From positions 11,023 through 75,022 of the forward strand of contig JBAYMO010000001.1 of assembly GCA_041663485.1 (NCBI GenBank): a DNA stretch of 64,000 nucleotides, read 5' to 3'. Both the position numbers and the translations under genes were made by a program. Positions 7,938 through 59,872 of the stretch are shown here, piece by piece (within the stretch, counting starts at the first letter, position 1; the number at the start of each line of letters is the position of its first letter). Under the pieces are notes generated by a model. That model saw only the letters and a list, made by a program, of their open reading frames with translations. It had not been told where the DNA came from and did not search any database. The DNA is from Candidatus Buchananbacteria bacterium (GTDB lineage Bacteria > Patescibacteriota > Patescibacteriia > Buchananbacterales > UBA6539).

Positions 7938-9923
7938 CTACTTCTTAATTAAGGCCTGGGTCGTAGAAGCCAAACCGGCCTTCTGCGCCGCCCACCAATT
8001 AAAAATATCATAGGCTACCGGCAGGGCCACGCTGCTGCCCTCACCTCCCTCTTCCACCAAAACCGTAATCACAATTTCTGGATCATGGTATGGCGCAAAG
8101 GCCGTAAACCAGGCTTGCGGCAGCTTAGTCGAGGACCATTGAGCCGTTCCAGTTTTAGCCGCCACTTCGACGGGTAGAGCACTTAAACGTTTACCACTAC
8201 CAGTCAAAACAGTTTGTCTCATTCCCCTCTTTATTATTTCAATATTTTTTTCGGATATAAAATCCTGATTTAAAATTCTTGGTTCAATCTTAGATATTGA
8301 ATTATTTTGACCGTCTAAAATTTCTTTAACCACATGCGGCTGGTAAATCTTGCCGCCGTTGGCATAAAATGACGTCCAAAGCGCGACCTGCAATGGCGTG
8401 GCCAGTAAATCACCCTGGCCAATGGCAAAATGATAAGTATCACCAATATACCAAACCTCATTTTTTGTTTCTTCTTTCCACCTGGGATCAGGCACAAAGC
8501 CGGTGGCTTCGTTAGGTAAGTCTATCCCCAGTTCCTTACCAATGTTAAACGATTCGCTATATTTTTCCAGCTGATCCACACCCAAACCCTTAAAATCATT
8601 ATAGCCGCCGCCGACGATATAAAAATAAGTATTGATTGATTCCGCTATCGCCTTAATAATGTTGGTGGCTCCGTGACCGCCGGCTTTCCAATCGGGAAAA
8701 AACCATTTATTAACATGGATGCCGCCGGAACTAACAAAAGTCGTATTTTCATTAACAATATTTTCCTGCAAAGCAGCGCCTCCGACAATCAACTTAAAGG
8801 TTGAACCGGGCGGATATTCACCACTAATTGAACGATTAAACAATGGGTGGCTAGAATCGTTAATTAGTTTCTGAAAATCACTTTGACTGATACCAAGACT
8901 GAATAAATTATTGTCAAAAGTCGGCAAAGAAACTAAGGCCAGGATTTCACCGGTTTTCGGATCCAAAACAATGACTGACCCTTTCTTTTTGCCAGTCGAA
9001 GATAAAATTTTCTTAAGACTCTTTTCCGAGATGTTTTGCAAATCTTGATCAATACTTAAAACCAAATTACTACCGGAAACATACTTCTGCGAAGCTAAAA
9101 TTTCCTTGGCTTGACCAGTGGCGTCTACCTCCACCTGCTCTTTGCCATTACTGCCTTTCAATTCTTTTTCATAGGTCAGCTCTAAGCCCGCCTTGCCGAC
9201 ATAATCATTGTAAAGGTAGCCTTTGGCCAAATATTCCTCCCTTTTACTTTCCTCAATCTTACCCTGATAACCTAAAACATGGGAAAAACTTTCAGTTGAT
9301 GACGCGGTTAAATAATGACGAGTACTGTCAATAATTAAAACCACGCCGGAATATTTCGTGGCCAATATTCTGATGCCGATTGCTTGATCTTGATTGAGAT
9401 TTTCCGCCACGATAATCGGCTGATAAGAATAGACGACTTTAGAAAATACTTGCTGATAGATGCCATCGGCCGATTGGCCGGTGACAGCGGATAATTCATC
9501 GGCCAAACTTCGACGAACGGCCTGATCCTTAGATAAATCAACCGGAATAATGCCCAAAGAAAAGCTTGGGATATTCTCCACCAACGGCTTCATGTTACGA
9601 TCATAAACCAGACCCCGAGGCGCTTTGACATCACGGATACGAATCCGATTGCCCTCCGCCACGGCGCGGAAGTAGTTACTTTGATACAATTGCAGATAAG
9701 CCGTTCGACCAAGTAATATAACCAAGCCTAAGAATAGTATTCCAAGCCAGAAATTGATACGCGGCTTATTTAAAATCAATCCAAATGAGCCGGACCGAAA
9801 ATTATTATCATCCGATGAAAAAGAATCCACTTCATGGCTGTAATTTTTGAAGCGGCGTTGAATACTATACTTGGAATTTTTCGATGTAATCCCAAAGGGA
9901 TCAGCCCCGGTTACGTTTTTCAT
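7938..9923 (-). CDS. mrdA: Penicillin-binding protein 2 / transpeptidase (rod-complex PBP)
   Basis: 661 aa; N-terminal TM helix and the STFK (SxxK) active-site motif. It is directly adjacent to mreD, mreC and mreB. Confidence 0.85.
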   Translation of the reverse strand: MKNVTGADPFGITSKNSKYSIQRRFKNYSHEVDSFSSDDNNFRSGSFGLILNKPRINFWLGILFLGLVILLGRTAYLQLYQSNYFRAVAEGNRIRIRDVKAPRGLVYDRNMKPLVENIPSFSLGIIPVDLSKDQAVRRSLADELSAVTGQSADGIYQQVFSKVVYSYQPIIVAENLNQDQAIGIRILATKYSGVVLIIDSTRHYLTASSTESFSHVLGYQGKIEESKREEYLAKGYLYNDYVGKAGLELTYEKELKGSNGKEQVEVDATGQAKEILASQKYVSGSNLVLSIDQDLQNISEKSLKKILSSTGKKKGSVIVLDPKTGEILALVSLPTFDNNLFSLGISQSDFQKLINDSSHPLFNRSISGEYPPGSTFKLIVGGAALQENIVNENTTFVSSGGIHVNKWFFPDWKAGGHGATNIIKAIAESINTYFYIVGGGYNDFKGLGVDQLEKYSESFNIGKELGIDLPNEATGFVPDPRWKEETKNEVWYIGDTYHFAIGQGDLLATPLQVALWTSFYANGGKIYQPHVVKEILDGQNNSISKIEPRILNQDFISEKNIEIIKRGMRQTVLTGSGKRLSALPVEVAAKTGTAQWSSTKLPQAWFTAFAPYHDPEIVITVLVEEGGEGSSVALPVAYDIFNWWAAQKAGLASTTQALIKK

Positions 9924-10449
9924 AAGAATCAGCAGGAAAAAGAAAATAATTTTTTAGCCGGCCAGAGGAAATAAAATAGGTAAAAAAAACAATCATTAAA
10001 ATCAAAACGTTCATTAAGGGCTCCCAAAGATACAACAATTTAAAATCATAAATGGCAAAAGAAAATTTAAAACCAAAAATTACAAAAATCGCACTCAAAA
10101 AAAGTAAAATCAAATTATGAATAATTGTACCAATAAACCCCAAGATGGCTAATGAATAAAGAGAGCGGTTGGTAAAGAAATTATTGTATAAGAAATTTAT
10201 AGTTACCACCGACAAGAGCAGACTTAAAGTTGTTTGACCAAAAGGCAAAGCGCTGTAAAGTTCCAAAAGTAAACCAGTTAACATGGCAAAAACTAAGCCT
10301 TTTTCGTAAGAAAAAATGACCGTCAAAAAAATAATCAGACAGAAAATAATATTCAAGCTTGAAATGGGTACCGGCCAAGTAGTCAAAAAGCTGATTTGAA
10401 TCAAAACCATCAACAGAGAAAAAAATAAATTGTAAAGAAAGTTATTCAT
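9901..10449 (-). CDS. mreD: Rod shape-determining protein MreD (polytopic membrane protein)
   Basis: 182 aa, very hydrophobic, positioned between mreC and the PBP2 gene. Confidence 0.6.
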   Translation of the reverse strand: MNNFLYNLFFSLLMVLIQISFLTTWPVPISSLNIIFCLIIFLTVIFSYEKGLVFAMLTGLLLELYSALPFGQTTLSLLLSVVTINFLYNNFFTNRSLYSLAILGFIGTIIHNLILLFLSAIFVIFGFKFSFAIYDFKLLYLWEPLMNVLILMIVFFTYFISSGRLKNYFLFPADSYEKRNRG

Positions 10450-11257
10450 GATTTTGGTTTTTTACCACCGAAACAATGGTGAGACTATCCAATTTGACCA
10501 GGGATTGCAAATAAGCGGTTTGGAAAAAAGTGTTGGGCTCGGAAATAATTCGGCTGACTTTGCCGATAACCAAACCTCGAGGAATTTGCGCCTCTGTACC
10601 GGATGTAATAACCACGTCCCCTTCTTTAACTATTTCATTCTTGGGAATCAACTCCATCTTTAAACTTAAGCCATGTTCACCGGCCACCACGCCTCGACTG
10701 CTGCTTTCATTTAAAATTGTCGCTGCGATTTGACTGCGAGAATCACTAATAATAATCGCTTCAGAACTATTTTTTTTGGTATACAAAATTTTACCAACTA
10801 TAATACCGCTATCGCTGATCACCGGCAGACCAACCGCGACGCCGTCTGCTTCACCTTTATTCAAAATTATTGACTGGAGATTCGGCTCGGGATTTTTACC
10901 AATTACCATAGCCGGAATTGATTCAAGCGCGGCGGCCTGGGCAAATTTACATTGCTTGGCTTGTTCTAAATTTTCTTCCAATTTAACTTTTAGACCAGCA
11001 TTTTCCGTTGTTAGCTGGGTAACGGCTTGGTTTAATTTTTCGTTTTCCGACTTAATCTCTGAAACATTGAAACGACTAGAATATAAATCATTAATCCCTG
11101 AACCGAATAAATAGATTCTGGCCTGGAGTGGAGAAATAATTCTTATTAGTAAATTTTCCGCCGGAACAAGAATCGTCGTATAATGCAAAAAAATCAGCAG
11201 AATCGCCGCCGCCAATAATAAAATCGAAAGCTTAGTTTTTCGTAATAACTTAAACAT
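10442..11257 (-). CDS. mreC: Rod shape-determining protein MreC
   Basis: 271 aa; N-terminal TM helix, a coiled coil, and a beta-rich C-terminus. Located downstream of mreB. Confidence 0.8.
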   Translation of the reverse strand: MFKLLRKTKLSILLLAAAILLIFLHYTTILVPAENLLIRIISPLQARIYLFGSGINDLYSSRFNVSEIKSENEKLNQAVTQLTTENAGLKVKLEENLEQAKQCKFAQAAALESIPAMVIGKNPEPNLQSIILNKGEADGVAVGLPVISDSGIIVGKILYTKKNSSEAIIISDSRSQIAATILNESSSRGVVAGEHGLSLKMELIPKNEIVKEGDVVITSGTEAQIPRGLVIGKVSRIISEPNTFFQTAYLQSLVKLDSLTIVSVVKNQNHE

Positions 11258-11269
11258 ACCAGAAATATT

Positions 11270-12328
11270 CTAACGAGAAGTCTTTTCTTCTTTGGTTGAT
11301 GATGGTACCGCCACTTCGCGCAATAAATTGTCATCTTCTAAAATTAGCCCCATACCGCGCACGCAACAAGTCTGAGGATCTTCGACTACTTTAACCGGAA
11401 TATGAGTCGCTTCGGAAATTGTCTCGTTTAAACCGGCCAAAAGCGCACTACCACCGGCTAAAACCATACCCCGCTGATAAATATCGGCAACTAATTCCGG
11501 GGGCGTGATTTCTAAGGTGCTTTTAATACCATCAATAATTCCCGCAACGGAACGCTGCATGGCCTGATGAACCTGGTCAGGGCTGACAATTACTTCTTTG
11601 GGCAAACCCGACATTAAATCGCGACCGCGCATGTGAAGTTCGTAGGCTTGGTCGGAATTAGCCATTTGGCTGGCGCGAATTTTCAAATCTTCGGCCAAAC
11701 TTTCACCCACTAATAAATTATATTCGTTGCGCGCGAATTGAATTATGTCTTGATTTAGTTTATTGCCGGCGACTCTCAAAGATTTCCAAGCCACCACGCC
11801 GGATAAAGAAATGACGGCAATTTCAGTCAGGCCACCACCCAAATCAACAATCATATTGCCTGACGGATCCTGAATCGGCAGCCGCGCGCCAATGGCAGAC
11901 GCGATAATGTTTTCTACTAAATAAACTTCTCTGGCGCCAGCCGATAATACCACATCCTCAACGGCCTTTTTTTCTACTTCTGTCACATCAAGCGGCACGC
12001 CGATAACCACGCGCGGTCGCGGAGAAAGGCCGTGGCTTTGCTGATATAAACGATCAATAAAATATTTCAACATTTTTTCCGTCACTTCAAAATCGGAAAT
12101 AATACCATCAACCAAAGGTTTTGAAATAGTAATGTGCGGCGGAGTTTTACCCAGCATTTTTTGCGCTTCCTCACCAACAGCCAAAATTTGATCATTGCGA
12201 TTATTTAAAGCAACGATAGATGCTTCGCGAACGACTATCCCCCTATCTTTTACATAGATTAGAGTATTGGATGTACCTAAATCAATTCCAATGTCTTTTG
12301 AGAATTTCTTGAATAAATTGTTAAACAT
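11270..12328 (-). CDS. mreB: Rod shape-determining actin homolog MreB
   Basis: 352 aa with the actin-fold motifs IGIDLGTSNTLIYV and DLGGGLTEIAV. Confidence 0.9.
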   Translation of the reverse strand: MFNNLFKKFSKDIGIDLGTSNTLIYVKDRGIVVREASIVALNNRNDQILAVGEEAQKMLGKTPPHITISKPLVDGIISDFEVTEKMLKYFIDRLYQQSHGLSPRPRVVIGVPLDVTEVEKKAVEDVVLSAGAREVYLVENIIASAIGARLPIQDPSGNMIVDLGGGLTEIAVISLSGVVAWKSLRVAGNKLNQDIIQFARNEYNLLVGESLAEDLKIRASQMANSDQAYELHMRGRDLMSGLPKEVIVSPDQVHQAMQRSVAGIIDGIKSTLEITPPELVADIYQRGMVLAGGSALLAGLNETISEATHIPVKVVEDPQTCCVRGMGLILEDDNLLREVAVPSSTKEEKTSR

Positions 12329-14415: not shown

Positions 14416-14967
14416 TTAGATGGTCATTATTTCATTTTCTTTTTTCTCGCCTAACTCATCGACTTTTTGTGTATATTCTTTCGATACTTCATCAAGTTTT
14501 TTTTGAATGGAAAATTTATCATCTTCGGTTATTTCTTTTTCTTTCTCCATTTTGCTGGCACTATCTCGCACCTTATCGCGAATTTGTCTAATGGTAATTC
14601 GTGCTTTTTCCATTTTTTCTTTGACTGATTTGACTAAATCCTTACGATTCTCTTCGGTCAATTGCGGAATGGTTAATCTTACCTGCTGACCTTCATTGAC
14701 CGGATTGATTCCAATGTTAGCCTGAATAATCGCTTTTTCAATTTCTTTGGACAAAGTTTTATCCCAGGGCTGAATCAAAATCGTCCGTGCTTCCGGCACG
14801 GCAATAGAAGCCATTTGCTTGATTGGCATTTTACTGCCATAAGCATCAACAATAATACCTTCCACCATCGCCGGGTTAGCTCGGCCGATACGCAGGGTAG
14901 CGAGTTCGCTTTTAAGTACGTCGATTGATTTCTCAAAATCCGGCTTACTTTGTTCGATTATTTGCAT
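14416..14967 (-). CDS. frr: Ribosome recycling factor
   Basis: 183 aa with the typical Frr sequence. Confidence 0.9.
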   Translation of the reverse strand: MQIIEQSKPDFEKSIDVLKSELATLRIGRANPAMVEGIIVDAYGSKMPIKQMASIAVPEARTILIQPWDKTLSKEIEKAIIQANIGINPVNEGQQVRLTIPQLTEENRKDLVKSVKEKMEKARITIRQIRDKVRDSASKMEKEKEITEDDKFSIQKKLDEVSKEYTQKVDELGEKKENEIMTI

Positions 14968-18235: not shown

Positions 18236-18310
18236 AATTATATTATATCATATTTTTTCTAACAAAAAAACACAAAAAAATCATTGATATCTTTGTGTTT
18301 TTATGATATT

Positions 18311-18430
18311 TTAGGCAATGTTTTTCTTGCCTCGGCGCAAATCCTTGGTTCTCTTAGCCAAAGCTCGGCCAACTTTCGTGTTCTTTTTAGAATGCTTAAT
18401 TCTTGCCTTCAAGGCGCTGTTTTGTCCCAT
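18311..18430 (-). CDS. Possible small basic, ribosomal-protein-like peptide (39 aa)
   Basis: Unlisted minus-strand ORF MGQNSALKARIKHSKKNTKVGRALAKRTKDLRRGKKNIA. No Shine-Dalgarno (SD) sequence seen. Confidence 0.2.
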   Translation of the reverse strand: MGQNSALKARIKHSKKNTKVGRALAKRTKDLRRGKKNIA

Positions 18431-18490: not shown

Positions 18491-20137
18491 CTATTCCAGA
18501 CTAGAAGGCATACCAGCTTTATAAAAACCCCTTTTACTTTTAATATAATCAACGGCAAATAAATACCTCCCGGTTGTGTGATTTTTTTTGGCTTTTATGC
18601 TTCTTATACTAGTCGGCTCTTTTGGCGCAATTACTTTTGCGCCTAAAACTTCTGATAATTTCTGACCAATGCCATTCTCTGCTCCGGTTGAACATGAAGA
18701 CAAAATAATAGTCGGCATTTTTTCGAAAAATTTAGTGGCGCCAGCCGCGGTTTGACCAGTCAAATCATCTGTGGTTATGCTCCATCTCTCTTGTTCAGGC
18801 GAACCAGGCTTAAAAAAATTATAACGACCAAACTTAATACTATCTTTAGTGCCATGTCCGCCAATTATCGCTAAAGATATTTTGTGACCGGATTGGTCCG
18901 ACGAATTGTAGCGTCGATCAAATTTAATCAAAGTTCGAACAAAGTCTAATTTACCGGAGCATTCTGCCACCCGCAAACTTAAATCTTTCTCAACCTGATC
19001 ATACAAACTCTTTAAAACCTCGCAATCGTTGTAAAAGGCACCATTGTGATCGCTGCGCGGATAAATAATTACGCCATAAGGCTTATCTAGGCTGTCAGCT
19101 TCCTCATATTGCCTAATAAGTAAATCGTTCGGATACCGGGCAAAATCAGCAATATTAAACTCCTGATTCAAAAACTGGCAAACCCCAGGCTTGGTTTCCT
19201 CCAAAGCCCGAACGGCGTTCAAATTATTCCTTATTACCTCGGACAAATCACCACGCCGATCACTTAAATCCCAAGCCCGAAAAAAATCACGTCCCGACAA
19301 ATTATAATCAGAAAGGATATAATCAAGCTCTTCGATACCATTGGTCATTGCTTCACTTTGAAAAGCTTCCGAACGCTCGAAGAGCGAAGACGTTATTTCA
19401 GTATAATGCTCCCAAGCATCTATATATTCCACGTCAGTCGAATAATCATCTTCACCACCTGGCCGCAATCTTTTGGCCAAAAGACCAACTTCATTGGCCG
19501 CGGACTGGTACTTATACCCAAAACCGTATTTAAATACAGGCTTAATTATTTCGACCGCCTCATGCATCTTAGGAGTTAGCTCCTGAGACAGGTATCGTCT
19601 TATAAGCCCAAAATTGTCCGTCAACGCTTCGACACCAATGTCTGAGCGTTTTTCATTGGACCTGTCTTCAGCCACCTGATAATAAGCCTTCAGGACATTA
19701 AATTCATCAAAAATCTCTTGATTCGAAAGGGCAAAATCAATTTCCCCTCTCAGATCGACAATCATGTCTAAGGAAAAATCCTTAACTTTCTTCCAGTCAT
19801 CATCTTGCTCATGTAACTTACTACAATTGGCAAGACGAATTAGAATTTCTAAAATACGATTTCTGAATTCCGATCTGGCGTAACGTTTATCTTCATTGAA
19901 CCCAATAAAAATTTCGCGTACCTCCGATTGCCTGGACTCCAACTCGGCCATCAGGCCAGATAAAGACTGTAAATCTTCTTCACCATTATTGGCCAAACTA
20001 TCAATTTTATTCACCAATTCCGACCAACTATTTAAAGTCGCGCGGGCATCTTTTTTTTCCTTGGGTTTTGGCGACTGATCTTGCTTCTTAGCCTCAAATG
20101 TTTCTTGGGCTGTTAGTTCTTCGTAACGCTCTGCCAT
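18491..20137 (-). CDS. Large protein with a helical N-terminal region and a C-terminal caspase/CHAT-like (clan CD) putative peptidase domain
   Basis: 548 aa; IIGGHGT (His) and ILSSCSTGA (Cys) are 54 residues apart, as in clan CD peptidases. Its start is 10 nt downstream of the mreB paralog's stop. Confidence 0.45.
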   Translation of the reverse strand: MAERYEELTAQETFEAKKQDQSPKPKEKKDARATLNSWSELVNKIDSLANNGEEDLQSLSGLMAELESRQSEVREIFIGFNEDKRYARSEFRNRILEILIRLANCSKLHEQDDDWKKVKDFSLDMIVDLRGEIDFALSNQEIFDEFNVLKAYYQVAEDRSNEKRSDIGVEALTDNFGLIRRYLSQELTPKMHEAVEIIKPVFKYGFGYKYQSAANEVGLLAKRLRPGGEDDYSTDVEYIDAWEHYTEITSSLFERSEAFQSEAMTNGIEELDYILSDYNLSGRDFFRAWDLSDRRGDLSEVIRNNLNAVRALEETKPGVCQFLNQEFNIADFARYPNDLLIRQYEEADSLDKPYGVIIYPRSDHNGAFYNDCEVLKSLYDQVEKDLSLRVAECSGKLDFVRTLIKFDRRYNSSDQSGHKISLAIIGGHGTKDSIKFGRYNFFKPGSPEQERWSITTDDLTGQTAAGATKFFEKMPTIILSSCSTGAENGIGQKLSEVLGAKVIAPKEPTSIRSIKAKKNHTTGRYLFAVDYIKSKRGFYKAGMPSSLE

Positions 20138-20147
20138 ATGTGTTTAA

Positions 20148-21155
20148 TTATTTTATGGCCAAGATACTTCGCTTGTATGATTCCAAATTCTCTAAAGCAA
20201 TACCAGTGCCTTTGGCCACGCAAAATATTGGCTCGTCAGCAATGTAAGCCGGCACGCCAGTTGCCTGCATCACCAATTGATCAATATTTCTCAGCTGACT
20301 GGAACCACCGGACATAATAATCCCCTTGTCAATAACATCCGCGGATAACTCCGGCGGCGTTTTATGCAGTACATCTTTAACGGCCTGAATAATACCTTCC
20401 AACTCCGTTTGAATGGCGTCGGTAACATCATCGGAAGTTACCGTCACGGTTCGAGGCAAACCGGAAACCGTATCGCGACCCCGCACTTCCATCGACAATG
20501 GTTCTTCCATGTACATGGCTGAACCGATATCAATTTTTACGCGTTCAGCTGAACGTTCACCGATAGCCAAATTATATTTACGACGAATAAACTCAGCAAT
20601 AGCCAAATCAAAACGATTGCCTCCGATTTTTACCGAGGTGGAAGCCACAATGCCACCCAAAGAAATAACGGCCATTTCCGACGTGCCGCCGCCGATATCA
20701 ATAATCATGTGACCCGAGGGCGAACCAATCGGAATATCAGCGCCAATAGCGGCCACAATCGGCTCTTTAATAATATAGGCGGCCTTAGCTCCGGCCGCGA
20801 TGGTCGCGTCAATAACCGCGCGCCGCTCAGTAGAAGTAATACCGGCCGGTACAGCCACCATCACTTCTGGCCGAAATAATCTAATACCGCCCAAAGCCTT
20901 ATTAACAAAATATCTCAACATAGCCGCGGTGGTTTTGTAATCGGCGATAACTCCGTCTTTCATCGGCCGAACCGCGATAATGGTTTCCGGCGTGCGGCCA
21001 AGCATTTCTTTAGCTTCAACGCCAACCGCTAAAATCTTTTTATCAATCGCTGAAACCGCTACCACCGAAGGCTCATTAATAACAATTCCCCTCTTGGGCA
21101 CATAAACCAAAGAATTAGTCGTACCTAAATCAATTCCGATTTTCTTGATTAGCAT
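20148..21155 (-). CDS. Second MreB/Mbl-type actin homolog
   Basis: 335 aa; IGIDLGTTNSLVYV and DIGGGTSEMAVISLGG. Confidence 0.85.
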   Translation of the reverse strand: MLIKKIGIDLGTTNSLVYVPKRGIVINEPSVVAVSAIDKKILAVGVEAKEMLGRTPETIIAVRPMKDGVIADYKTTAAMLRYFVNKALGGIRLFRPEVMVAVPAGITSTERRAVIDATIAAGAKAAYIIKEPIVAAIGADIPIGSPSGHMIIDIGGGTSEMAVISLGGIVASTSVKIGGNRFDLAIAEFIRRKYNLAIGERSAERVKIDIGSAMYMEEPLSMEVRGRDTVSGLPRTVTVTSDDVTDAIQTELEGIIQAVKDVLHKTPPELSADVIDKGIIMSGGSSQLRNIDQLVMQATGVPAYIADEPIFCVAKGTGIALENLESYKRSILAIK

Positions 21156-21258
21156 ATATTACAAAAAAAATTCTTTAAAATAGCTTATATATTATAAGCT
21201 AAATTTAAAAATTTGTCTAGTTTTACCCTTAAAAATTATGGCCAAAATAAAATAAAAA

Positions 21259-22119
21259 TTAGCTCCGGCCAGGAGTTTTAATACCAAAATATTTCAAAAA
21301 ATATTTGATACCGGAAATAAGATGAATTCTGCCACCAAGTTTAAACACCCCCAAAATTCCTTCCCGCTCCGCCGAGAATCTGGTATGATAATGAACTAAA
21401 ACCACTTCGGGAAAATAAACTACTTGGCTTTTATTTTCCCAAAAACGCCGGCAGAGATCCAAATCCTCAAAATACATAAAGAATCTTTCGTCGAACAAAC
21501 CAACTTTAACCAAAATTGACTGACGAATTAATAGACAAGCGCCAAATAGCCAATCAACGGGAATGGTTTTATCATGTTCAATATCAATCATCAGATACTG
21601 ATTGACTGAATTTTGAGCAAAAGGCAGCTTACCGAAAATGGTTCGGCGATAAAGTGGCACAAAAGTATTGGGAAATCGCCGGCAGGAATATTGAATGGTG
21701 CCATCCGGATATATTAATTTTGGTCCGATCATGCCGACCGACTCATTGTGTTCCAAATAGTGATACATTTTCTCAATAACGCCAGAAACAATAGCGATAT
21801 CAGAATTCAAAATCATGACATATTTGCCTTTGGCAGCTTTAATGCCTAAATTGTTGCCATAAGCAAAGCCGCCATTAACTTTTGATTGCATAGTGACAAT
21901 GGGCGGCACGACTAGTTCTTTTCCGTTGGCCAACCTGAACCTCTGAATATATTCCCGTGAAAAAAGATTGTTTACCATTTCTAAACACCCGTCATCCGAA
22001 TCATTATCAACCACTATGATTTCGTAGTCTAGCTGAGGTTGGGACAAAACAACGCCCTTGAGACACTGTTTAATCAGCTCCTTTGATTTGTAATTCAATA
22101 AAATAATTGATATATCCAT
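21259..22119 (-). CDS. Glycosyltransferase family 2
   Basis: 286 aa; IIVVDNDSDDG, a DxD-type GT-A fold. Confidence 0.8.
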   Translation of the reverse strand: MDISIILLNYKSKELIKQCLKGVVLSQPQLDYEIIVVDNDSDDGCLEMVNNLFSREYIQRFRLANGKELVVPPIVTMQSKVNGGFAYGNNLGIKAAKGKYVMILNSDIAIVSGVIEKMYHYLEHNESVGMIGPKLIYPDGTIQYSCRRFPNTFVPLYRRTIFGKLPFAQNSVNQYLMIDIEHDKTIPVDWLFGACLLIRQSILVKVGLFDERFFMYFEDLDLCRRFWENKSQVVYFPEVVLVHYHTRFSAEREGILGVFKLGGRIHLISGIKYFLKYFGIKTPGRS

Positions 22120-22124
22120 ATCTT

Positions 22125-23141
22125 TTAATTAAACCATGACCTGATTTGGTTGGCGGTAATTTTTCGGTGTCGCATAATTATTTGTCGTTTAGACCAAGTC
22201 CGGGGCAATAATTTAAAAAACTTTACCAGACCCGACCACTGAAACGGCTCAAAAATTAGCGCCCCAAAGGTTATAATAAAATCACGACTTAAAAACCATG
22301 GTGAAGCCAGAAATAAATTAATCAAATCATCATTTTTTACCAACATCAAATGATGATTGCGTAAAGAATAAATACGCAAAATCTTTGATATCTTTTTTCT
22401 TTCCTTTATTACTTGACTCAACTTTGATTGATAAAAACCACGATGATGAAAACAAACGGCTTGATAATTATACCAACAGGTAAAGCCATAAAGCCGCAAG
22501 CGCCATGATAAATCAATGTCTTCTTTATACGCAACAAAATCTTGATCAAAAAACTCATGGTTGATTGAAACATCATCCAGAGCTGACTTGCGATATAAAA
22601 CACAGGCGCCAGTGACCCCAAAGACTTCTTCGGTTTTATCGTATTGGCCCGAATCAATCTCACCTTCACCGCGATCAACAACTCTTCGGCTTTTAAAAAT
22701 TTTTAAGCCCGTGGAGTCGATGATATTTGATTTAATTGTTTCTCTCATGGACTGATCATTACTATCAATGGCCTCGGTGCTAAATTTCAAAATTTTACCG
22801 CCAAAGGCTGCGCCTTGCGGTTGGCGATCAGCAAATTCTACAATTTTTTCTAAAAAATTTTCCGTTAAAACTACATCGGCATTCATCACTAAGACATATT
22901 CGCTTTTGGCAATCAAAATACCCTGATTGTTAGCTTTGGCGAAACCGAGATTGCGAAAATTTTGTAAAATTGAAACGGTGGGATAATTAGAACGAATAAA
23001 ATCGACTGTTTCGTCGTCTGAGCCGTTGTCGATAACCAAAATGGAAAAGTCGCGAAAAGATTGGCGCATCAAAGACTCCATGCAATCAAAAATATAACGC
23101 ATAGAATTCCAAGTGACAATTTGCACCGATACTTTTGCCAT
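22125..23141 (-). CDS. Glycosyltransferase family 2
   Basis: 338 aa; ILVIDNGSDDET. Confidence 0.8.
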   Translation of the reverse strand: MAKVSVQIVTWNSMRYIFDCMESLMRQSFRDFSILVIDNGSDDETVDFIRSNYPTVSILQNFRNLGFAKANNQGILIAKSEYVLVMNADVVLTENFLEKIVEFADRQPQGAAFGGKILKFSTEAIDSNDQSMRETIKSNIIDSTGLKIFKSRRVVDRGEGEIDSGQYDKTEEVFGVTGACVLYRKSALDDVSINHEFFDQDFVAYKEDIDLSWRLRLYGFTCWYNYQAVCFHHRGFYQSKLSQVIKERKKISKILRIYSLRNHHLMLVKNDDLINLFLASPWFLSRDFIITFGALIFEPFQWSGLVKFFKLLPRTWSKRQIIMRHRKITANQIRSWFN

Positions 23142-23156
23142 AATTTTTAAGTTAAT

Positions 23157-24650
23157 TTATTTTTTTTCGGTTACCCAAAAACCCAAGCGATACTTGCCGC
23201 CCAGCATTAACCGAGTTTGAGCATCAGCGGCCGGCAATGACCCAAAAAGAATTAAGGTTACCGGTACCAATAACCATTGCAAAAACATCAAGACATAATG
23301 GTGCCATTTAAAATGTCTGGGTTTGGGTGGCAGCATAATCGCGTATAAAAAAGCAATGACCACCATGCCAATCATAGAAAAACGCATTAAAAAAGCTAAA
23401 ACATGAGGCGTGTTCTGAAAAAGCGCTGTTTCCCGTTCCATGGGTCGGGCTAGCCACAGCGGCAAATAACCGGCGGAAATCATTATAATCGGCGCGGTGG
23501 CCCAAGAATATACACCTTCAGTCTGATTCCAAAGATATCGTATTTTTTTAAAAAATGGAATGTTTCTACCCTCCCCTGACTTAAACCAAAATTGCTTAAC
23601 CATCCAGGGAAAATGCTCCACGCCCCAGGCCCAGCGGCGCATTTGCTTGTACTGATTCTTCAAGCTGCGCCAAAAATTACCGATATCGACCGTGTTCATA
23701 TAAACCGGAATATACATCGGTACGGTTTGATAATCGCCTTGATACCGAACCAAACCCTGAAGAAAAATTCGCGAATCTTCAGTTACAATTGTATTGTCCC
23801 AATAGCCCACGTCAACTAACGCCCTGAAACTCATAGAATGGGAGGAAAAAGTAAACAATCTCTCTGGACGCGACAAATCAGTAAACAACCAAAAAGTGGT
23901 TGAGCTGGCCACCACCCTGACGATTGGATTAGACTCCCAGACGTTATTATTATAAATGGCGATCGGTTGAAAGCTACAACGGGTCGGGTTGGGCTGAGTT
24001 AAATAATGATAAGTCAAACAGGCAAAATATTGAGGATGAACACAGGTGTCAATGTCAAAATTTGAAACAATCACTTGGTCATAATCTAATCCCAATTCAT
24101 CAATCAATCGATGGGCGCAAATCGCGGCGTAATGAGTATTTGAACCTTTACCCGGCAATTCATGAGGAATATCAGACGGATGAACTGTAATCAAAAATTT
24201 AAAAAATTTGTCGGAAAATTTTTCTCTGATTTGCTCGGAAATTTTTAAAAAATTTTCTTGATCACGCGCCTCACCGGCTAAAACCACAATAAATTTTTTC
24301 AAATCATAATTTGATTCTATCAAAGCCTTAAAAGGTTTTTCCACAATACCAAAAGGTTCTTTATAGGTAGGCAAAAAAATTAAATGATGATACTGAGTAA
24401 AATCTTTGGGCAGGGATTTCACGCGACTGAACCAATCCACCTCCACGTCGCGTCTAAATCGGCGCCAAGAAGTCAAAAGATAAATGAGCATATACAAGAT
24501 CCGAAGCAGCCAATAAATATCAAACGCGATGATAAAATAAATAGCCCAAAGAGGTTTAATAAAGGAAAGCAAAATAATTCCAAGAAAAGTCAGCCAGACT
24601 AATAAACCCGGGATAGTTTCTAAAATTCTATATTTTGTCTGCTCAGTCAT
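23157..24650 (-). CDS. Processive membrane beta-glycosyltransferase (cellulose/chitin synthase-like GT2)
   Basis: 497 aa, multi-TM, with DID, TED and QMRRW (QxxRW) motifs. Confidence 0.6.
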   Translation of the reverse strand: MTEQTKYRILETIPGLLVWLTFLGIILLSFIKPLWAIYFIIAFDIYWLLRILYMLIYLLTSWRRFRRDVEVDWFSRVKSLPKDFTQYHHLIFLPTYKEPFGIVEKPFKALIESNYDLKKFIVVLAGEARDQENFLKISEQIREKFSDKFFKFLITVHPSDIPHELPGKGSNTHYAAICAHRLIDELGLDYDQVIVSNFDIDTCVHPQYFACLTYHYLTQPNPTRCSFQPIAIYNNNVWESNPIVRVVASSTTFWLFTDLSRPERLFTFSSHSMSFRALVDVGYWDNTIVTEDSRIFLQGLVRYQGDYQTVPMYIPVYMNTVDIGNFWRSLKNQYKQMRRWAWGVEHFPWMVKQFWFKSGEGRNIPFFKKIRYLWNQTEGVYSWATAPIIMISAGYLPLWLARPMERETALFQNTPHVLAFLMRFSMIGMVVIAFLYAIMLPPKPRHFKWHHYVLMFLQWLLVPVTLILFGSLPAADAQTRLMLGGKYRLGFWVTEKK

Positions 24651-24728: not shown

Positions 24729-26318
24729 TTAAATTAATGACCGGCCGGTCATTTCCGGCGACTGAGGAATTTCAAAAATGTTTAAGATGGTGGGCGAAAT
24801 ATCCGCTAGCATACCGGAGGGAGTTAAAATGCTTAAATCACCCTGCACACTATCCAAACCCGAAGTTAATGTTTGACCTTCCCAACGCGCGCCCACCGCG
24901 ATAAAAGGCACGGGGTTGGTGCTGTGCTCCTTGTCAATTTCACCGGTTTGCAAATTTATCAGCTCTTCGGCATTGCCATGGTCAGCCGTGATTAAACAAA
25001 CGCCATTCTGTCCCAACACCGCGTTCACCAATTCACCCAAACACCGATCAACCGTTTCAACCGCTTTAATCGTCGCTGGAATTACACCAGTATGACCAAC
25101 CATGTCAGGGTTGGCAAAATTAACTACGATAAAATCATATTTGGCTTGCTTAATGGCCGCAATTAATTTGGCGTTTAATTCCATGGCGCTCATTTCCGGT
25201 TTTAAATCATAAGTTGGCACCGACGGCGACGGCACCAATATTCTTTGTTCACCCTGAAATTCGTCTTCTTTGCCACCGTTAAAAAAGAAAGTAACGTGGG
25301 CGTATTTTTCCGTTTCCGCCGCGTGAAGCTGAGTCAAATTGTTATCCTGAATAATTTTGGCCAAAGGAGTTTGAATTAATTCTTTAGGGAAAACCACATC
25401 AACCGGCAAATCTTTATCATACTCGGTAAAAGTAATAAAAACTAAATTGGAATATTTTTTTACTTTGGGAAATTTATCAAAACCGGGCAAAGCAAAAGCG
25501 GCGGAAATTTGTCTAGCTCGATCAGCTCTAAAATTAAAAAATATTACAACGTCATTATCATCTATTGTTGCCACCGGTTTAGAATTTTCCATAATTACGG
25601 TCGGCAAAAATTCTTCGTCAAAAATATTTTTACTATATGCTTTTTGAATAGCATCAATCGGATCTTCGGATTTTAATTTACTTTTACCGCTGGCGATGGC
25701 CGTATAGGCGCTCTCAATTCTTTCCCAATGATTATCGCGATCCATAGCGTAAAACCGTCCAGACAAACTGGCAATTTTGCCCACACCCACGGCTTTAATT
25801 TTTGCCTGAAGCGCTTTAACGAAATCTAAACCACCATCTTTTTTGGTATCCCGGCCATCCAAAATTACATGGATGAATACGTCCTTAATGCCATTGGCGC
25901 GGCACATATCAAGCAAAGCATACAAATGATCTTGATGAGAGTGAACACCGCCATTACTAACCAGACCCAAAAGGTGAAGTCGGCTTTTGTTGGTTTTAAC
26001 TTGTTTGATGGCTTTTAGCCACACTGGATTTTCAGCTAAACTTTTATTTTCAATCGCCCGATTAATTTTTGGCAATGTTTGATAAATAATTTTTCCTGAA
26101 CCAAGGTTGAGATGTCCAACTTCGGAATTACCCATTTCGCCCCAAGACAAACCAACCGCTTCGCCAGAAGCTTGCAGGGTCATGACCGGATAAGTAGAAA
26201 CCAGATGTTCAAATACCGGTTTTCTGGCTAAAGTTATACCGTTGCCTTTTGATGGCGGCGCTACGCCCCAACCATCGAGAATGGCCAAGACGACAGGTTT
26301 TGGTCTGATTATTGGCAT
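24729..26318 (-). CDS. gpmI: 2,3-bisphosphoglycerate-independent phosphoglycerate mutase
   Basis: 529 aa; GNSEVGHLNLGSG and ADHGNAE motifs. Confidence 0.88.
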   Translation of the reverse strand: MPIIRPKPVVLAILDGWGVAPPSKGNGITLARKPVFEHLVSTYPVMTLQASGEAVGLSWGEMGNSEVGHLNLGSGKIIYQTLPKINRAIENKSLAENPVWLKAIKQVKTNKSRLHLLGLVSNGGVHSHQDHLYALLDMCRANGIKDVFIHVILDGRDTKKDGGLDFVKALQAKIKAVGVGKIASLSGRFYAMDRDNHWERIESAYTAIASGKSKLKSEDPIDAIQKAYSKNIFDEEFLPTVIMENSKPVATIDDNDVVIFFNFRADRARQISAAFALPGFDKFPKVKKYSNLVFITFTEYDKDLPVDVVFPKELIQTPLAKIIQDNNLTQLHAAETEKYAHVTFFFNGGKEDEFQGEQRILVPSPSVPTYDLKPEMSAMELNAKLIAAIKQAKYDFIVVNFANPDMVGHTGVIPATIKAVETVDRCLGELVNAVLGQNGVCLITADHGNAEELINLQTGEIDKEHSTNPVPFIAVGARWEGQTLTSGLDSVQGDLSILTPSGMLADISPTILNIFEIPQSPEMTGRSLI

Positions 26319-26387: not shown

Positions 26388-27974
26388 TTAAAATAGTGAC
26401 CTACCTTTCATTTCTTTAGCTTTGGCTAAGTTCATCAGTTTTAGAATAGTTGGCCCTACGTCCCCTAATTTTCCCTGGTGTAGTTTGCGGTTAATCTTTT
26501 TTGGCTCAATTAAAATAAAGGGGACGGGATTGCTGGTATGCTCAGTATAGACTTCTCCGGTTTTTAAATCAATCATTTTCTCAGCATTGCCATGATCAGC
26601 GGTAATAATTAAGGTTCCATGTTTTTTTAAAACCGCTGGGACCAATTTGCCCAAACACTCATCAACATGTTCAATTGCTTTAATACAAGCTGGCAAATTA
26701 CCGGTATGACCAATCATGTCAGGCGAAGCCAGGTTAGCGCAAATGAATTCAAAACGTGATAAGCTAGAAATTACTTTGTTAGTAACTTTGGTCGTCGACA
26801 TGGCTGGCACTTTATCATAGCTATCAACATGAGGTGAAGCGATATTTATCCTCATTTCACCATTAACGGCATGATCATAACCACCATTAAAAAAGAATGT
26901 GATATGAGCGTATTTTTCCGTTTCCGCGATATAAATTTGTTTATTGCTCGGTAAAATTACCGGCAAAGTATTAAGTAAATCGGCTGAAGGATAAGCGGTC
27001 AAAATCGAATCTAAATCCGGGCCGAAATCGGTCATGGCTACAAAAACTATGTTTTTTAGAATCTTGGCACGTTTAGCAAGACCGGGATTTTTTTTCTCAA
27101 ATTCAACTTGCACGAATGGTTTAGCCAACTGACGGGCGCGGTCGCTGCGTAAGTTAAAGAAAATTATCGCGTCATCGTCGTCAATGCGTGGCACCATTTT
27201 CCCCTTACGCTTAATCACAAACGGCTTGATGAATTCATCAGTAATATTGGAATTATAGGAACGCGAAATACCTTCTTGAGGACTATTGGCCACTGCCACT
27301 TCTTTACCATCTACCATGGCGTTATAAGCTGAAATGGTTCTTGACCAAACCTTTTTGCGATCCATGGCATAAAACCTGCCGATAACCGTCGCAATCCACT
27401 CACCGGACTTTTTACCATTTTCTTTATTTTTCATCTGACGCATCAAAGCTTCAATTAATTTTAAGGAAGCATGCTGAGGTGAATCACGACCATCAGTAAA
27501 CAAATGAAGATAAACGTTAGGAATTTTTTTCAGCCGCGCCCAGGTCAGCAAAGCCAAAAGATGGTCCGGATCACTATGGGCGCTTTGGCCATCGGATAGC
27601 ATGCCCATTAAATGCAAATTGGATTTGTTTTCGATTACGTGCTTATAAGCCGCTTCAAAAGCCGGATTCTTAAAAAATTTTCCCGTGCTAATATCTTTAC
27701 CAATACTAACCGCGTCCTGATCAACCAGCCGGCCAGCACCTAAATTCATATGTCCTGCCTCGGAATTTCCGTGCTGTTTGGGCGGCAGACCAACATATTT
27801 ACCTGAAGCAAAAAGCTGCGTATGGGAATAGTTTTTCCACAAACGATCAAAGACCGGCTTTCGCGCTAGCTCAATGGCATTACCTTTATTTTTTGGCGCC
27901 AGTCCCCAGCCATCCAAAATCAATAAAACTACCGGCGGTTTTTTTTGATTAGCTTTATTTTTTAGTTTAGGCAC
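26388..27974 (-). CDS. Second, divergent iPGM-family phosphoglycerate mutase paralog
   Basis: 528 aa; GNSEAGHMNLGAG and ADHGNAE motifs, arranged in tandem with gpmI. Confidence 0.8.
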   Translation of the reverse strand: MPKLKNKANQKKPPVVLLILDGWGLAPKNKGNAIELARKPVFDRLWKNYSHTQLFASGKYVGLPPKQHGNSEAGHMNLGAGRLVDQDAVSIGKDISTGKFFKNPAFEAAYKHVIENKSNLHLMGMLSDGQSAHSDPDHLLALLTWARLKKIPNVYLHLFTDGRDSPQHASLKLIEALMRQMKNKENGKKSGEWIATVIGRFYAMDRKKVWSRTISAYNAMVDGKEVAVANSPQEGISRSYNSNITDEFIKPFVIKRKGKMVPRIDDDDAIIFFNLRSDRARQLAKPFVQVEFEKKNPGLAKRAKILKNIVFVAMTDFGPDLDSILTAYPSADLLNTLPVILPSNKQIYIAETEKYAHITFFFNGGYDHAVNGEMRINIASPHVDSYDKVPAMSTTKVTNKVISSLSRFEFICANLASPDMIGHTGNLPACIKAIEHVDECLGKLVPAVLKKHGTLIITADHGNAEKMIDLKTGEVYTEHTSNPVPFILIEPKKINRKLHQGKLGDVGPTILKLMNLAKAKEMKGRSLF

Positions 27975-55959: not shown

Positions 55960-56047
55960 AAAATTGGCTAAATTTTAAAATATTATTCTAACTTCTAAAA
56001 CTGCTAACATTTTAGCACAAATATCCCTGTCTTGCCCAATAAGAAAA

Positions 56048-56103
56048 GGGGTTAATTTGGCAGTCTCTGACTTTTTGTCATTGACTTCAAATTAACCCCT
56101 TGG
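56048..56103. repeat. Hairpin with 14-bp perfect inverted-repeat arms at the left border of the GC-rich island
   Basis: aaggggttaatttg ... caaattaacccctt separated by 28 nt and followed by T7. Confidence 0.5.
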
Positions 56104-56159
56104 TTTTTTTCTGCCCTCCTTTCACAAGTTGGCGAACCCAGCTCACGAAGCTCCATTCG

Positions 56160-57299: not shown

Positions 57300-57438
57300 G
57301 TCGTTTCCTCCAGATAGGTAGGTTCACGTAAAAGAAGCAACCGTTGAAAAAACCAACAGGGTTTATCAACGTTATTTCGGCAACAGGCCGAAATTCGAAC
57401 CTTGGAACAGCCAAAGTTCGAGTCAAAATTGACTTTCT

Positions 57439-57467
57439 ACCATATCATATTATCATAAAAAAGTCAA
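57439..57467 (-). promoter_or_regulatory. Sigma70 promoter (TTGACT-17-TATGGT) for the GC-island gene. A palindrome, AGTCAAAATTGACT, lies near the TSS.
   Basis: Plus-strand agtcaa at 57462-57467 and accata at 57439-57444. A 14-bp palindrome at 57419-57432 sits at the start of the 5' UTR of about 130 nt. Confidence 0.5.
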
Positions 57468-57490
57468 CCTTGACCAAAAAATTATAGTAA

Positions 57491-57519
57491 TTGACACTAA
57501 TTTAAAAGAATTATATGAT
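57491..57519 (+). promoter_or_regulatory. Sigma70 promoter (TTGACA-17-TATGAT) for the zinc-ribbon gene, divergent from the island-gene promoter
   Basis: ttgaca at 57491-57496, tatgat at 57514-57519. Confidence 0.55.
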
Positions 57520-57604
57520 GGCAAAGGCAATGTTTCTATTGCTATCTCTGCACCTTACCTCAAAACTATTTTACCCAACCAACATTAATCTGGAGGATGA
57601 TTAA

Positions 57605-57904: not shown

Positions 57905-57936
57905 AAACGCGGTTGTCCCTTTTTATTAAACAAAAA

Positions 57937-57955
57937 CCCCGGCTATTAACCGGGG
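57937..57955 (-). terminator. Intrinsic terminator of the 627-aa gene (ccccgg/ccgggg hairpin followed by a U-run on the minus strand)
   Basis: Hairpin ccccggctattaaccgggg followed on the minus strand by TTTTTGTTT. Confidence 0.55.
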
Positions 57956-57972
57956 TAAGCAGATAGATCTAC

Positions 57973-59856: not shown

Positions 59857-59872
59857 GTTTTTTATCTCTAAT

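What the first reader, a model, noticed from the sequence alone, without database searches (positions are those of the whole stretch)
18491..21155. Second MreB paralog operonically coupled to a 548-aa protein with a caspase/CHAT-like His-Cys domain
The window has two mreB genes. One sits in the canonical mreBCD-PBP2 module. The second stands alone, and 10 nt after its stop comes a long helical protein whose C-terminal roughly 170 aa carry GGHG and SCSTG motifs 54 residues apart. That spacing is the hallmark of clan CD (caspase/CHAT/gingipain) peptidases. An actin-like filament protein paired with a putative protease is not a standard module. It could be a cytoskeleton-anchored effector or a regulated-proteolysis or defence-like system.
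Basis: partly seen in the sequence, partly recalled or inferred. Interest (0 to 1): 0.6.

Follow-up and report, generated by a model that had tools for sequence, protein, structure and literature searches.

The report
Uncharacterised caspase-fold protease beside MreB
A 548-residue protein of a Candidate Phyla Radiation (CPR) bacterium is predicted to end in a caspase-like cysteine-protease domain from a large unnamed family, but its position next to a second mreB gene occurs only in this genome and is not a conserved actin-protease module.

Summary
mreB2 (20148-21155, -) is followed after 10 nt by a 548-aa ORF (18491-20137, -). That ORF carries GGHG (His428) and SCSTG (Cys482) 54 residues apart. 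A separate mreB1-mreC-(mreD)-PBP2 module lies at 7938-12328.

The proposed module is not supported. In 87 other loci no mreB is adjacent. Two distinct genomes (four loci, two of them duplicates) have one about 3 kb away, separated by opposite-strand genes. Neighbours are varied housekeeping genes and no defence genes were seen.

Best reading: a soluble helical-repeat plus clan-CD cysteine peptidase, probably co-transcribed with mreB2 here by local gene order. It is a new family of a known kind and of moderate interest.

The parts
18491..20137 (-). Gene X: 548-aa soluble protein made of an N-terminal helical repeat region plus a C-terminal clan-CD-fold cysteine peptidase domain. It is 100% identical to the hypothetical protein WCX71_00170 of a Candidatus Buchananbacteria MAG.
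   Evidence: No Pfam or NCBIfam family. No hydrophobic segment (maximum KD19 of 0.66) and a charged N-terminus.
19301..20047 (-). Residues 31-279: all-helical, alpha-solenoid-like region, poorly conserved in sequence among homologs.
   Evidence: AF2 secondary structure. Most homologs align only over the C-terminal 45-55% of the protein. Weak Foldseek and profile matches to importin, ARM, HEAT and designed helical repeat proteins.
19103..19300 (-). Residues 280-345: conserved helical module that precedes the protease domain. Consensus: W..S...NL..I..LE...PG....L..EFGI.DF.RYP..LL..Q.
   Evidence: Nearly invariant W289, E313, G318, L323, F332, R334, Y335, P336, L340 and Q343. pLDDT 96-99 in the C-terminal model.
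18494..19102 (-). Residues 346-548: caspase/hemoglobinase-fold (clan CD) domain. The beta-alpha-beta core is followed by three C-terminal strands.
18854..18856 (-). Codon CAT for His428 (GGHG), the predicted general base of the dyad.
   Evidence: Two residues after strand 420-426. Present in 212 of 213 relatives; the exception is a fragment. Codon checked.
18692..18694 (-). Codon TGT for Cys482 (SCSTG), the predicted nucleophile.
   Evidence: Two residues after strand 471-480. Present in 212 of 213 relatives; the exception is a fragment. Codon checked.
19049..19051 (-). Codon for Asp363, an invariant acidic residue in the loop after the first core strand. Candidate S1-pocket residue or His-orienting residue (inference).
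   Evidence: Asp in 209 of 209 aligned sequences. Position relative to strand 354-360.
18962..18964 (-). Codon for Glu392, an invariant acidic residue at the end of the second core strand. Role unknown.
   Evidence: Glu in 211 of 211 aligned sequences. Strand 387-393.
20138..20147 (-). 10-nt spacer (TTAAACACAT) between the mreB2 stop codon and the X start codon.
   Evidence: No terminator-like site falls here.
20148..21155 (-). mreB2: a stand-alone, full-length MreB, the upstream neighbour of X and probably co-transcribed with it. It is 63-64% identical to stand-alone mreB genes in Kaiserbacteria and Adlerbacteria loci.
21191..21219 (-). Best sigma-70-like promoter match of the region (TAGACA-17-TATAAT, 11 of 12), upstream of mreB2.
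   Evidence: This is a consensus match only; the number of sites found was not above the shuffled expectation.
18265..18302 (-). A/U-rich hairpin followed by a U-run, a possible terminator of the mreB2-X unit. It lies after a 39-aa ORF at 18311-18430.
   Evidence: RNA fold of -16.2 kcal/mol, z = -3.8 against shuffles. Sequence read. The consensus terminator scan did not report it because the stem has few G-C pairs.

Best explanation
Gene X encodes a soluble, intracellular cysteine endopeptidase of clan CD. It belongs to a large, unnamed family that is a remote branch of the DUF4347/CHAT/C80 group.

Shown by prediction and conservation:
- A caspase-type alpha/beta/alpha sandwich spans residues 346-548.
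- His428 follows one core strand and Cys482 follows the next.
- A conserved three-helix module (residues 280-345) precedes the sheet domain.
- A variable alpha-solenoid occupies residues 31-279.

Inferred:
- Cys482 is the nucleophile and His428 the general base.
- The invariant Asp363 lies in the loop after the first strand. That is the position that supplies the P1-determining residue in caspases (Arg179), the paracaspase MALT1 (Asp365) and metacaspases. Together with invariant Glu392 it would form an acidic S1 pocket, so cleavage after Arg or Lys is predicted.
- The helical N-terminal region binds a substrate or regulator, or holds the enzyme inactive. This is how helical regions serve in separase and in the TPR-CHAT protease Csx29.

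In this genome X is probably transcribed with mreB2 from a promoter upstream of mreB2. That adjacency is a local gene-order accident within a housekeeping region. It is not a conserved functional pair, and the substrate is unknown.

For: Dyad: His428 and Cys482 lie two residues past strands 420-426 and 471-480. Both are invariant in the 78- and 80-sequence alignments and present in 212 of 213 sequences each. The spacing of 54 residues equals that of the proposed Tce1 dyad, His186/Cys240 (PMC13323088).

Sequence bridge to known families: relative P0034 reaches 25.0 bits on PF14252 DUF4347 (cut-off 24.6) over the stretch that holds His and Cys. P0094 reaches 24.5 bits, plus a weak Peptidase_C80 match. 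Eight of 78 relatives match DUF4347 at E<=1.

Location in the cell: no signal peptide or membrane segment.

Family size and architecture: 3,014, 1,624 and 699 representatives at E<=1e-3, 1e-10 and 1e-30. In most full-length proteins among the 150 listed the domain is at the C-terminus of a protein of about 500 aa.

Adjacency is not conserved.

Local co-transcription.
Against: - No biochemical data exist for any family member.
- The His-Cys distance in the model could not be measured, because model coordinates are not exposed by the tools.
- The window protein itself matches no protease HMM.
- The P1 prediction rests on analogy only.
- Clan CD also contains non-proteolytic members (Raptor, c-FLIP) and transpeptidases (GPI8).
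- The closest structural match, Tce1, is itself only a putative protease; it showed no toxicity in yeast, unlike Tce2.
Confidence: 0.7

Rival explanations
1. MreB2 and X form a functional module: the protease is anchored to, regulated by, or cleaves the second actin-like filament (a cytoskeleton-coupled effector or regulated proteolysis of MreB).
For: - The 10-nt spacing and shared strand make co-transcription probable.
- An mreB2-type gene lies about 3 kb from the X homolog in Kaiserbacteria and Adlerbacteria loci (L012, L014).
- A RodA/FtsW gene is directly adjacent to the homolog in L001, L003, L005 and L038. Cell-shape genes therefore turn up near X more often than a rough 2-3% chance expectation. 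That category was chosen after seeing the data, and the loci are not independent.
Against: - No other locus has mreB adjacent: 0 of 57 loci with at least 1.1 kb upstream and 0 of 62 with at least 1.1 kb downstream.
- In L012 and L014 opposite-strand genes separate X from mreB, so they are not in one operon.
- X, mreB2 and frr share a loosely syntenic housekeeping region, which explains the proximity without any shared function.
- Homologs occur in Micrarchaeota, Woesearchaeota and Altiarchaeota. By my own knowledge these generally lack MreB; this was not tested here.
Confidence: 0.07
2. X is the effector of an anti-phage or abortive-infection system, like CHAT proteases in CBASS (SAVED-CHAT) or type III-E CRISPR (TPR-CHAT/Csx29). 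It would be activated by a signal and then cleave cellular targets.
Against: - No PADLOC model matches, and no CHAT Pfam match appears in any of 78 relatives.
- No sensor, cyclase, CRISPR or other conserved partner gene was found in 88 loci.
- Neighbours are DNA ligase, TIM, RpiB, ribosomal protein L25, methionine aminopeptidase, exonuclease VII and the like.
- Only one copy was found in this 64-kb window.
Confidence: 0.07
3. X is an exported toxin or effector against the host cell of this episymbiont, or a self-processing domain. The models would be the T6SS cargo proteins Tce1/Tce2 (DUF4347) or the C80 cysteine protease domains of MARTX and TcdA/B toxins.
For: - There are marginal DUF4347 and C80 HMM matches in relatives.
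- Tce2 toxicity in yeast depends on its Cys (PMC13323088).
- Several archaeal and metagenomic relatives are giant proteins of 1,070 to more than 2,900 aa, where the domain could act as a processing module.
Against: - No signal peptide or membrane segment.
- No secretion-system or immunity-like gene recurs next to X.
- Gene context is housekeeping.
- T6SS is not known in CPR bacteria (my own knowledge, not tested).
Confidence: 0.08
4. The domain is not a hydrolytic protease. It could be a transpeptidase or ligase (as in GPI8, asparaginyl ligases or PorU) or a catalytically silent scaffold (as in Raptor or c-FLIP).
Against: Absolute conservation of His, Cys, Asp and Glu in about 210 sequences argues against a silent scaffold. 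No acceptor-substrate pathway is suggested by the gene context. Nothing distinguishes a ligase from a hydrolase at this level of analysis.
Confidence: 0.08

Closest known systems
DUF4347 (Pfam PF14252), e.g. the P. aeruginosa H3-T6SS cargo proteins Tce1 (PA0256, PDB 9qpe) and Tce2 (PA2372)
   Same: - Same His-then-Cys order and the same 54-residue spacing (Tce1 His186/Cys240).
- One relative of X just passes the DUF4347 cut-off (25.0 against 24.6 bits).
   Different: - The window protein matches no Pfam model even at E<=10.
- X has a 345-residue helical N-terminal part and a conserved pre-domain that were not reported for Tce1 or Tce2.
- X is not associated with T6SS genes.
- X occurs in CPR bacteria and small-celled archaea rather than in Proteobacteria.
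CHAT domain proteases (PF12770): SAVED-CHAT of CBASS (8tl0) and TPR-CHAT/Csx29 of type III-E CRISPR
   Same: - Helical repeats N-terminal to the protease domain.
- An 'L.SC.TG'-type cysteine motif (from my own knowledge of CHAT motifs).
   Different: - No CHAT HMM match in any of 78 relatives.
- No SAVED, TPR or CRISPR partner.
- No defence-island context.
Clostripain-like C11, gingipain C25, legumain C13, and caspase/metacaspase/paracaspase C14 peptidases
   Same: - The dyad residues lie at the ends of consecutive core strands.
- An acidic residue follows the first strand, as in the Arg/Lys-specific members (inference).
   Different: - Sequence identity of 8-17% and no HMM match above threshold (2 of 78 relatives reach E of 0.017 or weaker on Peptidase_C14).
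- No recognisable prodomain, p20/p10 linker or secretion signal.
Separase (C50)
   Different: Separase is far larger, is eukaryotic, and has a pseudo-protease domain and securin regulation. No homology of the helical parts was shown.
Peptidase C80 (cysteine protease domains of MARTX RtxA and TcdA/TcdB)
   Different: C80 domains are InsP6-activated self-cleaving modules inside giant secreted toxins. Nothing comparable is evident for X.

Membership tests
MEROPS clan CD cysteine peptidases | Caspase/hemoglobinase alpha/beta/alpha sandwich fold | tested here: met
   [not shown]
MEROPS clan CD cysteine peptidases | Catalytic His precedes catalytic Cys in the sequence; each follows a hydrophobic beta-strand; His is followed by Gly | tested here: met
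   LAIIGGH428G follows strand 420-426, and PTIILSSC482 follows strand 471-480. Both residues are invariant.
MEROPS clan CD cysteine peptidases | His and Cys side chains close enough in space to act as a dyad | not testable with these tools
   [not shown]
MEROPS clan CD cysteine peptidases | Peptidase activity that depends on the Cys | not testable with these tools
   Needs biochemistry. No family member has been characterised: every named homolog is 'hypothetical protein'.
Pfam DUF4347 (PF14252) | Score at or above the gathering cut-off of 24.6 bits | tested here: not met
   The window protein has no Pfam match at E<=10. Relative P0034 scores 25.0 bits and P0094 24.5 bits. Eight of 78 relatives match at E<=1. 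X is a remote relative, not a member by Pfam's criterion.
Pfam CHAT (PF12770) | HMM match | tested here: not met
   CHAT is absent from the families matched by the 78 relatives at E<=1. No match for X.
Pfam Peptidase_C14 (caspase) and Peptidase_C80 | HMM match at the gathering score | tested here: not met
   Peptidase_C14: 2 of 78 relatives, best E 0.017. Peptidase_C80: 1 of 78 relatives, E 0.0099 and 16.6 bits against a cut-off of 23.8.
MreB/Mbl family (for the neighbour mreB2) | Full-length match above the curated cut-offs | tested here: met
   PF06723 scores 440.6 bits over residues 4-328. TIGR00904 scores 442.1 bits against a cut-off of 365.75.
Conserved MreB-protease gene pair (the proposed module) | The two genes are adjacent in related genomes | tested here: not met
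   0 of 87 other loci have mreB next to the homolog. mreB lies within 4-6 kb in only two distinct genomes (L012, duplicated as L069/L070, and L014), with opposite-strand genes in between.
Known anti-phage defence systems (PADLOC-DB 2.0) | Match to a defence-protein model, or a conserved defence partner gene | tested here: not met
   No PADLOC match for X or mreB2 at E<=1. No recurrent partner gene in 88 loci.

The most novel reading that the evidence does not exclude
The family could be a lineage-typical regulatory protease of ultrasmall episymbionts (CPR bacteria and DPANN archaea) that acts on the cell-shape or elongation machinery. Under this reading the mreB2-X pair in this genome, and the RodA/FtsW-X pairs in Staskawiczbacteria-like genomes, would be remnants of a real functional link, such as proteolytic control of a second MreB filament or of SEDS-dependent wall synthesis.
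Probability: 0.07. Interest if true: 0.7.

Novelty: new member of a known kind. Interest (0 to 1): 0.35.

Why it matters
CPR bacteria and DPANN archaea make up a large share of microbial diversity, yet most of their lineage-specific proteins have no assigned function. This work gives a fold, a catalytic dyad and a testable activity to a family with at least 1,600 representatives at 50% identity. Every named member is annotated 'hypothetical', and Pfam, NCBIfam and PADLOC do not detect the window protein (a few relatives match Pfam DUF4347 only marginally). It also extends the DUF4347/CHAT/C80 branch of caspase-like proteases into organisms where no such enzyme has been described, and it suggests a separase-like or TPR-CHAT-like layout for an intracellular protease. 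Finally, it removes a tempting but unsupported idea: the actin-protease 'module' is a gene-order coincidence in one genome.

Tried and rejected
1. Sequence search of X and of family profiles against PDB. Only designed helical-repeat, TIM-barrel or 'Pizza' proteins scored. The DUF4347 chain 9qpe_G appeared at E 0.92, and its alignment could not be displayed. The trimmed profile A6 gave only repeat artefacts.
Probability was 0.26, not significant, although His428 aligned with His121.
3. A word-indexed homolog search with the domain profile, meant to reach Pfam-annotated distant relatives. It returned only 22 short, unannotated proteins.
4. The afdb50 structure library was not available, so no comparison with predicted structures of annotated proteins was possible.
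5. Search for conserved neighbours: all-against-all clustering of ORFs in 33 and then 89 loci, plus a Pfam scan of 104 flanking genes. The only recurrent 'neighbours' were antisense shadow ORFs inside X. The most frequent real neighbour was FtsW/RodA, with four ORF matches in three loci in that scan (a fourth locus, L038, turned up later).
6. Defence reading: PADLOC gave nothing.
7. Rfam scan of the whole window: no family at gathering score.
8. Closer relatives that might preserve the pair. The only near-identical contig (L037, 98% identity) begins inside X, so it says nothing about the upstream gene.
9. Literature: no paper links CPR bacteria, caspase-like proteins and MreB.
Full report
OBSERVATION

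The ORF list shows two genes on the minus strand: a 335-aa ORF at 20148-21155 and a 548-aa ORF at 18491-20137. I call the second one X. A 10-nt spacer, TTAAACACAT, separates them.

The upstream product is a full-length MreB. It scores 440.6 bits on PF06723 and 442 bits on TIGR00904, against a cut-off of 365.75.

A second MreB, mreB1 (11270-12328), heads a canonical module. It is followed by MreC (10442-11257), a 182-aa ORF in the MreD position that has no Pfam hit, and a PBP2-type transpeptidase (7938-9923). The two MreBs are 42% identical.

X contains GGHG with His at residue 428 and SCSTG with Cys at residue 482, 54 residues apart.

The window comes from a Candidatus Buchananbacteria genome of the Candidate Phyla Radiation (CPR). 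X is 100% identical to the hypothetical protein WCX71_00170.

WHAT X IS

X matches no Pfam model even at E<=10, and in NCBIfam it has only insignificant matches far below cut-off. It has no PADLOC match at E<=1 and no solved structure by sequence. It has no hydrophobic segment and a charged N-terminus, so it is predicted to be soluble and cytoplasmic.

A word-indexed search found 96 homologs. Every one that carries a name is called 'hypothetical'. The closest is only 37-38% identical, and most align only over the C-terminal half.

In an alignment of 78 sequences the invariant positions include Asp363, Glu392, His428 and Cys482. After adding the best hits of an exhaustive search, I aligned 213 sequences to the domain profile. 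His was present in 212 of 213 and Cys in 212 of 213, the two exceptions being fragments. Asp363 was present in 209 of 209 aligned sequences and Glu392 in 211 of 211. The motifs are therefore not chance.

AlphaFold2 with this alignment gave a confident model of the full protein: pLDDT 89, pTM 0.87. Residues 300-548 modelled alone gave pLDDT 95, pTM 0.92. The layout is as follows:
- Residues 31 to about 345 are all helical.
- Residues 346-548 form a beta-alpha-beta sandwich.
- His428 lies two residues after strand 420-426.
- Cys482 lies two residues after strand 471-480.

Foldseek gave the same answer independently. All five hits with E<=1e-3 were clan CD: caspase-11 at 5.6e-5, GPI8 and a C11 protease. 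The full-length model gave the same families, more weakly.

There is also a thin bridge by sequence. Relative P0034 reaches 25.0 bits on PF14252 DUF4347 (cut-off 24.6) across the stretch that holds His and Cys. P0094 reaches 24.5 bits, plus a weak Peptidase_C80 match. Eight of 78 relatives match DUF4347 at E<=1.

The study that solved Tce1 proposes His186/Cys240 as its dyad, also 54 residues apart. It also shows that the yeast toxicity of its paralog Tce2 depends on Cys115 (PMC13323088).

One caveat remains: the tools do not return coordinates, so I could not measure the His-Cys distance.

FAMILY SIZE AND DISTRIBUTION

An exhaustive profile search of 1.84 billion cluster representatives found 3,014 proteins at E<=1e-3, 1,624 at E<=1e-10 and 699 at E<=1e-30. 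In most full-length proteins among the 150 listed, the domain sits at the C-terminus of a protein of about 500 aa.

Records with names are mostly CPR bacteria. These include Buchanan-, Uhr-, Staskawicz-, Levy-, Berkel-, Kaiser-, Adler-, Nomura-, Sung- and Peribacteria, Moraniibacteriota and Saccharibacteria. The rest are mostly small-celled archaea: Micrarchaeota, Woesearchaeota and Altiarchaeota. There is one Promethearchaeota record and one Omnitrophica record. A few assemblies are labelled Gammaproteobacteria or Pseudomonadales, and I did not verify those labels. Archaeal and some metagenomic versions are much longer, from 1,070 to more than 2,900 aa.

IS THE PAIRING WITH mreB A MODULE?

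I collected 87 other loci that encode a relative:
- 32 from one genome per species.
- 4 by exact look-up of top homologs on long contigs.
- 52 from metagenomes, of which 51 gave a plus-strand domain match in the tally.

tblastn with both MreBs found an mreB near the homolog in only two distinct genomes. These are Kaiserbacteria L012 (duplicated as L069/L070) and Adlerbacteria L014. In both, mreB lies about 3 kb downstream, not upstream, and opposite-strand genes sit in between.

Of the 87 loci, 57 have at least 1.1 kb of sequence upstream of the gene and 62 have at least 1.1 kb downstream. None has an adjacent mreB.

Clustering all flanking ORFs found no recurrent partner. The large clusters are antisense shadow ORFs inside X itself. 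A Pfam scan of 104 flanking genes gave FtsW/RodA as the most frequent family (four ORF matches in three loci). After that came scattered housekeeping functions: DNA ligase, TIM, RpiB, ribosomal protein L25, methionine aminopeptidase, exonuclease VII, NUDIX and glycosyltransferases.

The window, L012 and L014 also share frr a few kb away. The proximity of X and mreB2 in these Parcubacteria therefore looks like residual synteny of a housekeeping region.

Within this genome co-transcription is still likely:
- The spacer is 10 nt, with no terminator-like site in it.
- The best promoter-like site of the region (11 of 12 matches) lies upstream of mreB2.
- An A/U-rich hairpin with a U-run (z = -3.8) follows X and a 39-aa ORF.

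MECHANISM

Shown by prediction and conservation:
- A clan-CD fold.
- His and Cys at the canonical strand ends.
- Four invariant polar residues.
- A conserved three-helix module (residues 280-345; pLDDT 96-99) packed before the sheet domain.
- A variable alpha-solenoid at the N-terminus.

Inferred:
- Cys482 attacks the scissile bond, with His428 acting as the base.
- Asp363 sits in the loop after the first strand. That position supplies the P1-determining residue in caspases (Arg179), MALT1 (Asp365) and metacaspases, according to established knowledge of these families. An acidic residue there, together with invariant Glu392, predicts cleavage after Arg or Lys.
- The helical part binds a substrate or regulator, or keeps the enzyme inactive, as in separase and TPR-CHAT.

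The substrate is unknown. I put 0.7 on 'soluble clan-CD cysteine peptidase of a new CPR/archaeal family, with the adjacency to mreB2 incidental'.

RIVALS

- A true MreB-linked module: 0.07.
- A CHAT-like defence effector: 0.07. There is no partner gene, no PADLOC hit and no defence-island context.
- An exported or self-processing toxin domain like Tce1 or C80: 0.08. The best structural match and the giant relatives favour it. The lack of any export signal and the gene context argue against it.
- A transpeptidase or a silent scaffold: 0.08. Invariant catalytic residues argue against a silent domain.

COMPARISON WITH WHAT IS KNOWN, AND NOVELTY

X works like a clan CD peptidase. It is closest to DUF4347, CHAT and C80. 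X itself fails the HMM membership tests for all named families. I found no paper describing such a family in CPR or DPANN organisms.

X is therefore a new family within a known kind of enzyme. It is not a new kind of system, and the 'actin-plus-protease module' is not a real feature.

Interest is moderate. The family is very large, is restricted to poorly understood lineages and can now be tested experimentally. The surprising part of the original finding, however, does not hold.

Noticed in passing
window 18311-18430 (-) and 18265-18302 (-): A 39-aa, very basic ORF (MGQNSALKARIKHSKKNTKVGRALAKRTKDLRRGKKNIA) lies 60 nt downstream of X. It is followed by an A/U-rich hairpin with a U-run (-16.2 kcal/mol, z = -3.8). 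The ORF has no Pfam match. It may be a small ribosome-associated or nucleic-acid-binding protein that closes the transcription unit.
   Followed up: partly
L001 7252-8342, L003 1058-2146, L005 3990-5093, L038 about 928-1836: A RodA/FtsW (SEDS) gene is directly adjacent to the X homolog in four loci, downstream in three and upstream in L005. Together with the mreB proximity in the window, L012 and L014, this is a weak, post-hoc hint of a link to cell-shape genes. The loci are not phylogenetically independent.
   Followed up: partly
window 14416-14967 (frr) with L012 12169-12657, L014 12246-12632, L022 11429-11968: The ribosome recycling factor gene lies 4-6 kb from the X homolog in four lineages. 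This indicates residual synteny (X .. mreB2-type .. frr) among Parcubacteria, with local rearrangements.
   Followed up: partly
L024 1762-8790, L025 3463-8175, L026 3379-6615, L027 2432-5644, L065 2-8755: In Altiarchaeota, Micrarchaeota, Peribacteria and a metagenome contig, the same His-Cys domain sits inside giant proteins of 1,070 to more than 2,900 aa. These architectures differ from the roughly 500-aa CPR form, and their other domains were not examined.
   Followed up: no
window 24729-26318 (-) and 26388-27974 (-): Two tandem paralogs of cofactor-independent phosphoglycerate mutase, 44% identical over their full length. The second one matches iPGM_N and Metalloenzyme in Pfam. This is an unusual duplication for a reduced genome.
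   Followed up: partly
window 56001-58000; ORF 56160-57299 (-): This segment has 51% G+C against about 40% elsewhere in the window. It holds a 379-aa ORF with no Pfam match. The neighbouring 690-aa ORF (57973-60045) also has no match. The segment may have been acquired horizontally.
   Followed up: no
window 9901-10449 (-): The 182-aa ORF in the MreD position between mreC and the PBP2 gene has no Pfam match at E<=0.001. Calling it MreD rests on position alone.
   Followed up: no
window 21259-24650 (-): Three consecutive family-2 glycosyltransferase genes lie directly upstream of mreB2 on the same strand. The X homolog in L002 is also followed by a GT2 gene.
   Followed up: no
window 33433-34719 (-): An ORF matching the NiFe-hydrogenase large subunit (PF00374, 5.2e-34).
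   Followed up: no
window 1-64000: No Rfam family reaches its gathering score anywhere in the 64 kb, so there is no tRNA, rRNA or riboswitch. Nearly all genes are on the minus strand and the GC skew is steadily negative.
   Followed up: no
L005, L009, L013, L021: Assemblies labelled 'uncultured Gammaproteobacteria' or 'Pseudomonadales' carry homologs of X that are 32-45% identical. L005 has a compact context (RodA/FtsW upstream, ribosomal protein L25 downstream) like that of the CPR loci; the other three were not examined. The taxonomic labels of these records look doubtful.
   Followed up: no
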